Source: Escherichia coli
GTDB lineage: Bacteria > Pseudomonadota > Gammaproteobacteria > Enterobacterales > Enterobacteriaceae
Assembly (NCBI RefSeq): GCF_003334305.1
Contig: NZ_QOWS01000003.1
Direction: 5' to 3' (one strand)
DNA: 64,000 nt
Below, piece by piece: positions 24,457-27,370 of the stretch. Position numbers: made by a program. Position 1 is the stretch's first letter. Every line of letters starts with the position of its first letter.

Positions 24457-27370
24457 AATTCTTCTCTCAATAAAATATCCACAGCGATGCGATGCGTTAT
24501 TGCTGGTTTTCGTTGTCTCTGACAAACTCTTGTAAACAGAGTTATCCACAGCCTCAGGCTGTAATCTTAATTTCAAAGAAACTTCGCACGGTGAATAGTA
24601 TTTTTTTAACCTATTGATAGATAAGTTAAAAATTAAGATTCCGTTTTGTCGAGTCGATCACTTGACGATTTTATTCGTCTTGAATTGCAATGCGTTTTTA
24701 TTTTTATTCACAAGCTGTGGATGAATCAGGCGTCACGCGGTAACCCTTTTTCAATCACCCGAACCAGACGCTGTTTTTTCGGCAATTGCACTTCGACTAT
24801 GCACGCATTTCGTCTCTCTATTTGCTGCGCAATCGCCCACGCTATGTGCTCATCGAGAAGTGGGTGCTCACCTTTACGACTTTCCAGCGCTGTCAAAATC
24901 GTTTCATCCCAAGGGGCATTGCCTAATGCTACGGCGATATTACGCAGCCAACGCAGGTGACCAATACGACGAATCGCCGATCCTTCCGTGACTTTTAAAA
25001 ACTTCTCTTCGCTCCAGGCGAATAACTCAATGAGTTCCGGTGCGTGTAGCGGCTTACGCGGGCTGAAATCGTCTTCTGTAGTGAGTTGCGAATAGCGATT
25101 CCACGGGCAGATAAGCTGGCAGTCATCGCAACCGTAAATACGGTTTCCCATTAACGGTCGCAACTCTTCCGGGATCGCCCCTTCAAGTTCGATGGTGAGA
25201 TAAGAGATACAGCGGCGAGCATCGACGGTATATGGCTCGACGATGGCACCGGTCGGGCAAATCGTCATACAGGCTATGCATTTACCGCATCCTTCCTCGA
25301 CTGGTTGATCCACGGGCAGCGGAATATCGACCAGCAATTCGCCTAAAAAGAAGAAAGAACCGGCCTCGCGATTGAGGATAAGTGAGTGCTTACCTGTCCA
25401 GCCGAGCCCAGCTTTTGCAGCTAACGGGCGCTCGAGAATAGGCGCAGAATCGACAAACGGTCTAAAATTCAGCGAAACACAATGTTGCTGAATCATCTCG
25501 CCCAGCTTTTTGAGTCGGTTGCGCAGAAGTTTGTGATAGTCACGGCCCAGCGCATAACGGCTAACATAGCCGAGTTTGGGGTTTTTCAGCGTGCTGGCAA
25601 ATGCGGCGTTAGCAGGAAGGTAATTCATCCGCACGCTGATCACGCGCAGCGTACCGGGTAATAACTCATGGGGGCGAGCGCGCAGCATACCGTGACGTGC
25701 CATCCAGTCCATTTCGCCGTGGTATTGTTTGTCCAGCCATGCTTGCAGTTTGGGCTCGGACTCGCTGAGATCGGTATCGGTAATACCTACCTGCTGAAAG
25801 CCCAGTTCCAGCCCCCACTGTTTAATTTTTTGCGCTAACTGATTGAGATCGAGGGGCTCTGACATGACGGACCATACAATGAAGAAAAACCCCGTAAGTA
25901 TACCACACACCGTCTGGCACGCCGACGATATCCGCCGCGGAGAACGTGAGGCGGCAGATGCGCTGGGGCTTACACTCTATGAGCTGATGCTTCGCGCTGG
26001 CGAAGCCGCATTCCAGGTGTGTCGTTCGGCGTATCCTGACGCCCGCCACTGGCTGGTGCTGTGCGGTCATGGTAATAACGGCGGCGATGGCTACGTGGTC
26101 GCGCGACTGGCCAAAGCGGTCGGCATTGAGGTCACGTTGTTGGCCCAGGAGAGCGACAAACCGTTGCCGGAAGAGGCCGCGCTGGCACGCGAAGCATGGT
26201 TAAACGCGGGAGGCGAGATCCATGCTTCGAATATTGTCTGGCCCGAATCGGTAGATCTGATTGTTGATGCGCTGCTCGGTACCGGCTTGCAGCAAGCGCC
26301 CCGCGAATCCATTAGCCAGTTAATCGACCACGCTAATTCCCATCCTGCGCCGATTGCGGCGGTTGATATCCCTTCCGGCCTGCTGGCTGAAACCGGCGCT
26401 ACGCCAGGCGCAGTGATCAACGCCGATCACACCATCACTTTTATTGCGCTGAAACCAGGCTTGCTCACTGGAAAAGCGCGGGATGTTACCGGACAACTGC
26501 ATTTTGACTCACTGGGGCTGGATAGTTGGCTGGCAGGTCAGGAGACGAAAATTCAGCGGTTTTCGGCAGAACAACTTTCTCACTGGCTAAAACCGCGTCG
26601 CCCGACTTCGCATAAAGGCGATCACGGGCGGCTGGTAATTATCGGTGGCGATCACGGCACGGCGGGGGCTATTCGTATGACGGGGGAAGCGGCGCTACGT
26701 GCTGGTGCTGGTTTAGTCCGAGTACTGACCCGCAGTGAAAACATTGCGCCGCTGCTGACTGCACGACCGGAATTGATGGTGCATGAACTGACGATGGACT
26801 CTCTTACCGAAAGCCTGGAATGGGCCGATGTGGTGGTGATTGGTCCCGGTCTGGGCCAGCAAGAGTGGGGGAAAAAAGCACTGCAAAAAGTTGAGAATTT
26901 TCGCAAACCGATGTTGTGGGATGCCGATGCATTGAACCTGCTGGCAATCAATCCCGATAAGCGTCACAATCGCGTGATCACGCCGCATCCTGGCGAGGCC
27001 GCACGGTTGTTAGGCTGTTCCGTCGCTGAAATTGAAAGTGACCGCTTACATTGCGCCAAACGTCTGGTACAACGTTATGGCGGCGTAGCGGTGCTGAAAG
27101 GTGCCGGAACCGTGGTCGCCGCCCATCCTGACGCTTTAGGCATTATTGATGCCGGAAATGCAGGCATGGCGAGCGGCGGCATGGGCGATGTGCTCTCTGG
27201 TATTATTGGCGCATTGCTTGGGCAAAAACTGTCGCCGTATGATGCCGCCTGTGCGGGCTGTGTCGCGCACGGTGCTGCAGCTGACGTACTGGCGGCGCGT
27301 TTTGGAACGCGCGGGATGCTGGCAACCGATCTCTTTTCCACGCTACAGCGTATTGTTAACCCGGAAGTGA

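What the first reader, a model, noticed from the sequence alone, without database searches (positions are those of the whole stretch)
24475..24724. DnaA-box cluster with an IHF-consensus site downstream of the tRNA-Gly genes (datA-like)
Three DnaA-box matches (ATATCCACA, perfect TTATCCACA, TCATCCACA on the opposite strand) lie within 250 bp, with an IHF-consensus match (TATCAATAGGTTA) between the second and third. This arrangement and its position after the glyV-type tRNA cluster match what I recall of datA, the chromosomal locus that promotes DnaA-ATP hydrolysis. The last box abuts the queG stop codon.
Basis: partly seen in the sequence, partly recalled or inferred. Interest (0 to 1): 0.4.

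Follow-up and report, generated by a model that had tools for sequence, protein, structure and literature searches.

The report
Known E. coli datA locus

Summary
The window is E. coli chromosome. The stretch 24475-24724 lies between a tRNA-Gly(GCC) cluster and the queG stop codon. Apart from one missing tRNA-Gly copy and 2 spacer SNPs, it is base-for-base the mapped datA locus of K-12 MG1655. The IHF 13-mer TATCAATAGGTTA is the sequence published as the MG1655 datA IHF-binding site (IBS).

It missed the perfect box TTATTCACA (24704-24712, +) and the 2-mismatch box TTGTAAACA (24530-24538, +). Matched to the published descriptions, these are essential boxes 3 and 7. The essential core is 24530-24712, exactly the published 183 bp.

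Three boxes in 250 bp occur in 45% of random 64-kb windows. The full arrangement occurs in fewer than 0.03%.

The 195-bp core (24530-24724) is present in 5426 of 5426 complete E. coli genomes. The boxes and their spacing are conserved in E. albertii, Salmonella, Klebsiella, Pantoea and Photorhabdus, while the spacers diverge.

Verdict: interpretation supported; already known; low interest.

By-product: the architecture scan also found a conserved DARS-core-like DnaA-box/IHF element in Beta- and Gammaproteobacteria, often upstream of priA.

The parts
24269..24456 (+). Two tRNA-Gly(GCC) genes (24269-24344 and 24381-24456), the glyV-type operon. K-12 has three copies. Transcription from this operon's promoter reads through into datA.
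   Evidence: ARAGORN; Rfam tRNA; alignment to MG1655 glyV/X/Y. The read-through role comes from PMC10950094.
24475..24483 (+). DnaA box 1 (ATATCCACA, 1 mismatch). It belongs to the original 5-box datA but is not required for DnaA-ATP hydrolysis. It reads TTATCCACA in the other genera examined.
   Evidence: TATCCACA is invariant in the 8-genome alignment. The numbering is inferred from PMC5835720 and PMC4585315.
24482..24505 (+). Terminator-like hairpin followed by GTTTTCGTTG. It is a candidate for the glyV-X-Y terminator/attenuator that limits read-through into datA.
   Evidence: Consensus scan only. That such an element exists is from PMC10950094. Its exact position was not confirmed.
24530..24538 (+). 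DnaA box 7 (TTGTAAACA, 2 mismatches, low affinity), 3 nt upstream of box 2. Essential for datA-dependent DnaA-ATP hydrolysis.
   Evidence: [quoted passage not shown] The 3' part, ACAGA, is invariant across genera.
24542..24550 (+). DnaA box 2 (TTATCCACA, perfect, high affinity). Essential.
   Evidence: Invariant in alignments A2 and A3. Literature.
24548..24562 (+). Short GC-rich hairpin (ACAGCC-TCA-GGCTGT) overlapping the last 3 bases of box 2. Terminator-like.
   Evidence: Consensus scan only.
24607..24619 (-). IHF-binding site (IBS), TATCAATAGGTTA, a perfect match to WATCAANNNNTTR. It lies 56 nt after box 2 and 84 nt before box 3. Essential.
   Evidence: Identical to the MG1655 datA IBS in PMC4585315 Fig. 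S11.
24656..24659 (.). The single GATC (Dam) site in the intergenic region, inside the block GATCACTTG. The block is kept in E. coli, E. albertii, Klebsiella and Photorhabdus.
   Evidence: No function has been shown.
24704..24712 (+). DnaA box 3 (TTATTCACA, perfect TTATNCACA), in the same orientation as boxes 7 and 2. Essential.
   Evidence: The assignment is inferred: 24530-24712 is exactly the published 183-bp minimal datA, whose essential boxes 'have the same directionality' (PMC5742627), and datA has 'two consensus boxes' (PMC5835720). TTAT.CACA is invariant across genera.
24716..24724 (-). DnaA box 4 (TCATCCACA, 1 mismatch), head-to-head with box 3 across 3 nt.
   Evidence: [quoted passage not shown] TGTG is kept in all genera examined except Photorhabdus.
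24690..24743 (+). yjeV, a 17-codon ORF annotated in K-12 (MRFYFYSQAVDESGVTR). It overlaps boxes 3 and 4 and the 3' end of queG.
   Evidence: MG1655 annotation; translation.
24726..25865 (-). queG (epoxyqueuosine reductase), convergent with the tRNA operon. Its stop codon lies one base after box 4.
25373..25381 (-). Probable DnaA box 5 (TTATCCTCA, 1 mismatch) inside queG. It would be part of the original ~1-kb, five-box datA and is dispensable.
   Evidence: It is the only other box with at most 1 mismatch within 1 kb. The numbering is inferred and of low confidence.

Best explanation
The interval is datA, the chromosomal DnaA-inactivating locus of E. coli.

Mechanism, taken from work on the near-identical K-12 sequence:
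- ATP-DnaA binds the high-affinity boxes 2 (24542) and 3 (24704), which point the same way. It binds the weak box 7 (24530) cooperatively.
- After initiation, IHF binds the site between boxes 2 and 3 (24607-24619) and bends the DNA sharply. This brings box-2-bound and box-3-bound DnaA together.
- The resulting ATP-DnaA oligomer hydrolyses its bound ATP. [quoted passage not shown] It yields initiation-inactive ADP-DnaA and suppresses untimely re-initiation.
- Box 4 (24716, opposite strand) stimulates the reaction. Boxes 1 and 5 mainly add DnaA titration.
- Timing is set by IHF occupancy. Before initiation, read-through transcription from the upstream tRNA-Gly promoter lowers IHF binding. That read-through is attenuated by a terminator, by DnaA at box 2 and by bound IHF itself.

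Shown here: sequence identity with mapped datA, the box and IBS inventory and spacing, non-random clustering, and conservation.
Inferred from the literature: all protein binding and all biochemistry.
For: - Identity with MG1655 datA in the same orn - tRNA-Gly - queG context.
- The literature places minimal datA downstream of glyV-X-Y next to queG, with boxes 2, 3, 7 and the IBS essential and box 4 stimulatory (PMC10950094; PMC5742627; PMC10380432; PMC11724364; PMC5835720).
- The IBS 13-mer is identical to the published MG1655 datA IBS.
- Box 7 start to box 3 end is 183 bp, and to box 4 end 195 bp. The published minimal sizes are 183 and about 200 bp.
- The arrangement is far beyond chance.
- The 195-bp core is present in 5426 of 5426 complete E. 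coli genomes, at 95% identity or more in 5405.
- In an 8-genome alignment of Enterobacterales, two members of which were retrieved without requiring the motifs, the invariant columns are almost all on box 1, the box 7/box 2 block, the IBS core and box 3. Mean column identity is only 49%.
- The start-to-start distance from box 2 to box 3 is 162 bp in E. coli and 161 bp in Salmonella and Klebsiella. In the pattern-selected orthologues the box 2-IBS and IBS-box 3 gaps are 56-57 and 84-86 nt.
Against: - Nothing here contradicts the identification.
- No binding or hydrolysis was measured for this strain.
- The numbering of boxes 3, 4, 7, 1 and 5 rests on matching text descriptions and sizes to the sequence. 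The primary papers with the annotated figure (Kasho 2013, Kasho 2017, Kitagawa 1998) are not held.
- The strict IHF consensus is absent at the homologous position in Salmonella and Klebsiella. IHF dependence therefore may not hold in every genus.
- One of 5426 E. coli genomes (strain P276M) lacks box 3. Together with the published viability of datA deletants, this shows the locus is not essential.
Confidence: 0.97

Rival explanations
1. A passive DnaA titration sink. The boxes only bind and sequester DnaA, lowering free initiator after the locus is duplicated, with no catalytic ATP hydrolysis. This was the original Kitagawa/Ogawa interpretation.
For: Six boxes with at most 2 mismatches lie within about 900 bp. 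PMC5835720 states that datA also titrates DnaA directly, and that deletions outside boxes 1-4 reduce titration.
Against: The same review and PMC5742627 report that point mutations in the IBS, box 2 or box 7 give the full datA-deletion phenotype, and that datA-IHF promotes DnaA-ATP hydrolysis in vitro. A fixed box 2-IBS-box 3 spacing conserved across genera is not needed for simple titration. Titration is best seen as a secondary contribution rather than an alternative.
Confidence: 0.02
2. A transcription-control element. DnaA and IHF would act as roadblocks or attenuators at the 3' end of the tRNA-Gly operon, or as regulators of yjeV or queG, and the effect on replication would be secondary.
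For: Three terminator-like hairpins lie in the interval, one overlapping box 2. [quoted passage not shown]
Against: In that work, transcription regulates IHF occupancy of datA rather than being its purpose. No sigma-70-like promoter was found in 24050-24850. The replication phenotypes of box and IBS point mutants are documented.
Confidence: 0.01
3. A chance cluster of DnaA-box-like 9-mers in an AT-rich intergenic region.
For: Window-wide counts of boxes and IHF sites are at expectation. Three boxes with at most 1 mismatch in 250 bp occur in 45% of simulated windows.
Against: Four boxes with an internal IHF site occur in 0.025% of simulations. Two perfect boxes flanking an IHF site occurred in 0 of 4000. 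The sites are islands of invariance in an otherwise 49%-identical cross-genus alignment.
Confidence: 0.001

Closest known systems
[quoted passage not shown]
   Same: Same locus. The genomic context is orn - tRNA-Gly - datA - queG. All boxes and the IBS are identical. The spacings are identical: box 7, 3 nt, box 2, 56 nt, IBS, 84 nt, box 3, 3 nt, box 4.
   Different: Two SNPs in spacers (window 24488 and 24511). Two tRNA-Gly genes upstream instead of three. Both tRNA copy numbers are common among E. coli genomes.
DARS2 of E. coli (DnaA-reactivating sequence 2, rppH-mutH intergenic)
   Same: A non-coding cluster of DnaA boxes combined with an IHF site, whose cell-cycle-timed IHF binding controls the nucleotide state of DnaA.
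   Different: It has the opposite output: ADP release, which regenerates ATP-DnaA. Its core is a head-to-head box pair separated by 5 bp, plus box III, and it needs Fis. In the window, the essential boxes 7, 2 and 3 are all head-to-tail, and the only head-to-head pair (boxes 3 and 4) is 3 nt apart.
oriC left DnaA-oligomerisation region (R1 - IBS - R5M...)
   Same: ATP-DnaA oligomer on same-direction boxes, assisted by an IHF-induced bend.
   Different: There is no duplex-unwinding element here. According to PMC10380432, DnaA-ATP hydrolysis is not observed at oriC. IHF binds oriC before initiation and datA after it.
oriC-proximal DnaA-box clusters of Bacillus subtilis (Okumura et al. 2012, cited in PMC10950094)
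   Same: Chromosomal DnaA-box clusters outside the origin that repress untimely initiation. This is from my own knowledge plus the citation seen.
   Different: No IHF site and no demonstrated ATP hydrolysis. There is no sequence or positional homology. Not tested here.

Membership tests
datA (E. coli DnaA-inactivating locus) | [quoted passage not shown] | tested here: met
   tRNA-Gly genes end at 24456 and the queG stop is at 24726-24728. The MG1655 annotation has the same order. Location as stated in PMC10950094.
datA (E. coli DnaA-inactivating locus) | Sequence identity with the mapped K-12 datA | tested here: met
   Alignment A1: 2 substitutions between the last tRNA and queG, none in a box or the IBS.
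datA (E. coli DnaA-inactivating locus) | High-affinity boxes 2 and 3 in the same orientation, with a low-affinity box 7 next to box 2, within a 183-bp minimal region | tested here: met
   TTGTAAACA (24530), TTATCCACA (24542) and TTATTCACA (24704) are all on the + strand and span exactly 183 bp. Criteria from PMC5742627 and PMC5835720. The box numbering is inferred.
datA (E. coli DnaA-inactivating locus) | A single IHF-binding site between boxes 2 and 3 | tested here: met
   TATCAATAGGTTA at 24607-24619 is the only WATCAANNNNTTR match in the interval. It is identical to the published MG1655 datA IBS.
datA (E. coli DnaA-inactivating locus) | Conservation of the boxes and their spacing among E. 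coli strains and relatives | tested here: met
   Present in 5426 of 5426 genomes; alignments A2 and A3. This agrees with the 59-genome study PMC4585315.
datA (E. coli DnaA-inactivating locus) | oriC-proximal chromosomal position (94.7 min), replicated soon after initiation | not testable with these tools
   oriC is not in the window. The position is implied only by synteny with MG1655 coordinates 4,392,7xx.
datA (E. coli DnaA-inactivating locus) | IHF-dependent stimulation of DnaA-ATP hydrolysis, and post-initiation IHF binding | not testable with these tools
   This is biochemistry and ChIP. It is known only for K-12.
DARS (DnaA-reactivating sequences) | Core of oppositely oriented boxes I and II separated by 5 bp, plus box III head-to-tail with box II | tested here: not met
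   The best inverted 9-mer 5 nt after box 2 has 4 mismatches (read from the sequence). The only head-to-head pair (boxes 3 and 4) has a 3-nt gap. Criterion from PMC6868365.

The most novel reading that the evidence does not exclude
Nothing about the window's own locus departs from K-12 datA. The most novel reading that remains open comes from the by-product of the architecture scan.

A conserved element occurs in Beta- and Gammaproteobacteria, in 87 of the 120 loci returned: TTATGCACA, 58-70 nt, TAAGTnATTGATTT, 95-99 nt, then a box-III-like, box-II-like and inverted box-I-like triplet with 3-nt and 5-nt gaps. It is often upstream of priA. It could be an undescribed datA/DARS2-type locus that controls the nucleotide state of DnaA outside Enterobacterales. 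datA's tandem box 7/box 2 pair would then share its design with the tandem pair of that element.
Probability: 0.25. Interest if true: 0.55.

Novelty: already known. Interest (0 to 1): 0.08.

Why it matters
datA is one of the four known systems that set the ATP/ADP state of DnaA, and so the once-per-cycle timing of E. coli replication. The others are RIDA, DARS1 and DARS2. Finding datA in an E. coli window adds no new biology.

The exercise does have some practical value:
- It maps every functional element of datA to exact coordinates in this window.
- It shows that the box arrangement and the box 2-box 3 distance are conserved across Enterobacterales, while the strict IHF consensus is not.

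The by-product element in Beta- and Gammaproteobacteria would matter more if it proves to be a DnaA-regulatory locus.

Tried and rejected
- Primary papers with the annotated datA figure could not be read: Kasho & Katayama 2013 (PMC3549119), Kasho et al. 2017 (PMC5270471) and Kitagawa 1998 (PMC317192) are not held. The datA alignment in the PMC4585315 supplement is stored as an image. Box numbering therefore had to be inferred from text.
- A literature search for TTATTCACA together with datA found nothing relevant.
- The sigma-70 promoter scan of 24050-24850 found no site, so the published PglyV-X-Y and PyjeV promoters could not be placed.
- An Rfam search at permissive threshold found only the two tRNAs and sub-threshold noise. 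No RNA family explains the interval.
It cannot give the fraction of Enterobacterales that carry datA, and it is biased towards loci that match the pattern. Unbiased Salmonella and Klebsiella sequences came from chromosomal DNA filed in the plasmid collection.
- Synteny of the by-product element with E. coli DARS2 (rppH, mutH, ptsP) was tested and not found.
- One literature search was badly designed and uninformative. Two others failed in the queue.
- I considered and rejected the reading that box 3 is TCATCCACA. That would break the published 'same directionality', the 183-bp size and the count of 'two consensus boxes'.
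Full report
**What is in the sequence.** The window around the finding reads orn (+), two tRNA-Gly(GCC) genes (24269-24344 and 24381-24456, +), a 269-nt intergenic stretch, then queG on the minus strand with its stop codon at 24726-24728.

- ATATCCACA, 24475-24483 (+)
- TTATCCACA, 24542-24550 (+)
- the IHF consensus TATCAATAGGTTA, 24607-24619 (read on the minus strand)
- TCATCCACA, 24716-24724 (-), one base from the queG stop

- a second perfect consensus box, TTATTCACA, 24704-24712 (+), 3 nt before the minus-strand box
- a 2-mismatch box, TTGTAAACA, 24530-24538 (+), 3 nt before TTATCCACA

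The only other box with at most 1 mismatch within a kilobase is TTATCCTCA at 25373-25381 (-), inside queG.

**Is it more than chance?** Over the whole 64-kb window, neither DnaA-box-like 9-mers (47 found, 47.3 expected) nor IHF consensus matches (4 found, 2.3 expected) are enriched. The signal lies in the clustering. In 4000 first-order Markov simulations of the window:
- three boxes with an IHF consensus among them occurred in 0.48%
- four boxes with an IHF site occurred in 0.025%
- two perfect boxes within 200 bp flanking an IHF site occurred in none

**Identity with mapped datA.** The 801-bp query around the finding hits all 5426 complete E. coli genomes in the same tRNA-Gly/queG context.

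Aligned to MG1655 (NC_000913.3, orn - glyV - glyX - glyY - yjeV/queG), the window differs by one tRNA-Gly copy and by two substitutions in spacers. Every box and the IHF site are identical.

**Which box is which.** I could not open the primary papers that show the annotated sequence, so the numbering is inferred from published descriptions:
- Minimal datA is 183 bp. [quoted passage not shown] The IBS lies between boxes 2 and 3 (PMC5835720).
- A 200-bp minimal datA comprises boxes 2, 3, 7 and 4 plus the IBS (PMC11724364).

In the window, TTGTAAACA (24530) to TTATTCACA (24712) is exactly 183 bp with all three boxes on the + strand. Extending to TCATCCACA (24724) gives 195 bp. Hence:

| Box | Sequence | Start | Role |
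|---|---|---|---|
| 7 | TTGTAAACA | 24530 | essential |
| 2 | TTATCCACA | 24542 | essential |
| 3 | TTATTCACA | 24704 | essential |
| 4 | TCATCCACA (-) | 24716 | stimulatory |
| 1 | ATATCCACA | 24475 | dispensable |
| 5 (probable) | TTATCCTCA (-) | 25373 | dispensable |

It missed two of the three essential boxes. I put about 0.85 on this numbering. It does not affect the identification.

**Conservation.** The 195-bp core is present in 5426 of 5426 complete E. coli genomes, at 95% identity or more in 5405.

In an alignment with MG1655, a 96.4%-identical strain and E. albertii, all substitutions fall in spacers. The single outlier, strain P276M, has box 3 replaced (TTATTTTGG) and box 4 weakened (TTTGGATGA).

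Beyond Escherichia, an architecture scan of one genome per species returned true orthologues next to queG in E. albertii, 'Enterobacter' sp. Ag1, two Pantoea and three Photorhabdus. tRNA-Gly genes lie upstream wherever the locus reaches that far. Those loci were selected by the motifs. I therefore added Salmonella sp. and K. pneumoniae sequences found by plain blastn among chromosomal DNA filed in the plasmid collection.

In the 8-genome alignment the mean column identity is 49%, and almost all invariant columns fall on four islands:
- box 1 (TATCCACA)
- ACAGA-TTATCCACA (the 3' end of box 7 plus box 2)
- the IBS core
- box 3 (TTAT.CACA)

The start-to-start distance from box 2 to box 3 is 161 bp in Salmonella and Klebsiella against 162 bp in E. 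coli. The pattern-selected orthologues have box 2-IBS and IBS-box 3 gaps of 56-57 and 84-86 nt. Box 4's TGTG is kept everywhere except Photorhabdus. The strict IHF consensus is not present at the homologous position in Salmonella or Klebsiella. This is the one feature that is less conserved than expected.

**Mechanism.** The following comes from the literature on the K-12 sequence and was not tested here. ATP-DnaA occupies boxes 2 and 3, and box 7 cooperatively. IHF, bound between boxes 2 and 3 only after initiation, bends the DNA so that the box-2 and box-3 DnaA molecules interact. The oligomer then hydrolyses its bound ATP (DDAH), giving inactive ADP-DnaA. Box 4 stimulates the reaction.

IHF occupancy is reduced before initiation by read-through transcription from the tRNA-Gly promoter. 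That read-through is attenuated by a terminator, by DnaA at box 2 and by IHF itself. The window contains three terminator-like hairpins in the right place, at 24482-24505, 24548-24562 (overlapping box 2) and 24646-24668. I could not tie any of them to the published TglyV-X-Y.

Direct titration of DnaA by the boxes is a documented secondary contribution.

**Comparison and verdict.** This is datA itself, not a relative of it. It does not have the DARS core, which is a head-to-head box pair 5 bp apart plus box III (PMC6868365). Its essential boxes are head-to-tail, and its only head-to-head pair (boxes 3 and 4) is 3 nt apart. No Rfam family other than tRNA matches the interval.

The finding is real, correctly interpreted and already known, so interest is low.

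**By-product.** The scan pattern was TTATNCACA-N45-70-TAANNNNTTGAT-N70-100-TTWTNCACA. I estimated about 3 chance hits for uniform base composition.

Eighty-seven loci belong to one conserved element of Beta- and Gammaproteobacteria. Hosts include Comamonadaceae, Polynucleobacter, Ralstonia, Pandoraea, Herbaspirillum, Neisseria, Vogesella, Pseudomonas/Stutzerimonas, Methylomonas and Methylotuvimicrobium. Its layout is TTATGCACA, 58-70 nt, TAAGTnATTGATTT, 95-99 nt, TATCCACA-AAG-TTATCCACAG-4 nt-TGTGGATAAC. Spacers and flanks diverge.

Box statistics over 88 instances:
- 79 have the tandem box, with at most 2 mismatches, 3 nt upstream of the final box
- 55 have an inverted box, with at most 2 mismatches, exactly 5 nt downstream

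This is the III, II, inverted-I arrangement and the 5-bp head-to-head spacing described for the DARS core. A profile of the element aligns weakly (E about 3e-4) to the E. coli DARS2 core and to datA box 7/box 2.

Context:
- priA lies just downstream in about 50 loci
- hemE lies upstream in 46 loci by tblastn; in two low-GC Burkholderiales loci read in detail the element fills the hemE-priA intergenic region
- other neighbours are rdgC, an ABC-F gene and proS
- some genomes carry two copies
- in one complete Stutzerimonas genome it lies at 3.68 of 4.61 Mb

There is no rppH/mutH synteny. A search for papers combining DnaA box, priA, hemE and intergenic found none. Reviews do state that DARS-like sequences are conserved in many proteobacteria, so its novelty is uncertain.

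Noticed in passing
L002-L121 (e.g. L092:1574-1769, L018:2883-3064, L076:1410-1598, L098:5413-5610, L006:7936-8124): A conserved DnaA-box/IHF element in Beta- and Gammaproteobacteria: TTATGCACA, 58-70 nt, TAAGTnATTGATTT, 95-99 nt, then tandem plus inverted DnaA boxes with 3-nt and 5-nt gaps. That final triplet is the DARS-core arrangement. It occurs in 87 of the 120 scan hits. priA lies just downstream in about 50 loci and hemE upstream in 46. Some genomes carry two copies. There is no synteny with E. coli DARS2. It could be a datA/DARS2-type regulatory locus or a DnaA-controlled priA promoter.
   Followed up: partly
L122:2428-2710 (E. coli P276M, NZ_CP044293.1): One of 5426 complete E. coli genomes has a short divergent patch that destroys datA box 3 (TTATTTTGG) and weakens box 4 (TTTGGATGA). 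Boxes 1, 7 and 2 and the IBS are intact. It is either a natural DDAH-defective variant or an assembly error.
   Followed up: partly
window 24269-24456: This strain has two tandem tRNA-Gly(GCC) genes where K-12 has three (glyV, glyX, glyY). Both states are common among E. coli genomes: annotations show x2 or x3. Because read-through from this operon regulates datA, copy number changes the distance from promoter to datA by 111-112 nt.
   Followed up: no
L126 (Salmonella sp. pPJT1-452kb, NZ_OM317741.1) and L125 (K. pneumoniae CP125156.1): In Salmonella and Klebsiella, boxes 1, 7, 2, 3 and 4 and the 161-bp box 2-box 3 distance are kept. The strict IHF consensus, however, is absent at the homologous position. 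The Salmonella copy, with three tRNA-Gly genes and queG, sits on a record typed as a conjugative IncHI2A 453-kb plasmid. The Klebsiella 'plasmid' is 5.37 Mb, i.e. a chromosome.
   Followed up: partly
window 24652-24664: The block TCGATCACTTGAC, which contains the only GATC of the intergenic region, is conserved as GATCACTTG in E. coli, E. albertii, Klebsiella and Photorhabdus. No published datA element is assigned to it.
   Followed up: no
window 9275-9321 and 57426-57510: Rfam gathering-threshold matches elsewhere in the window: a Guanidine-II (mini-ykkC) riboswitch and the RpsF leader. Both are expected for this region of E. coli and unrelated to the finding.
   Followed up: no
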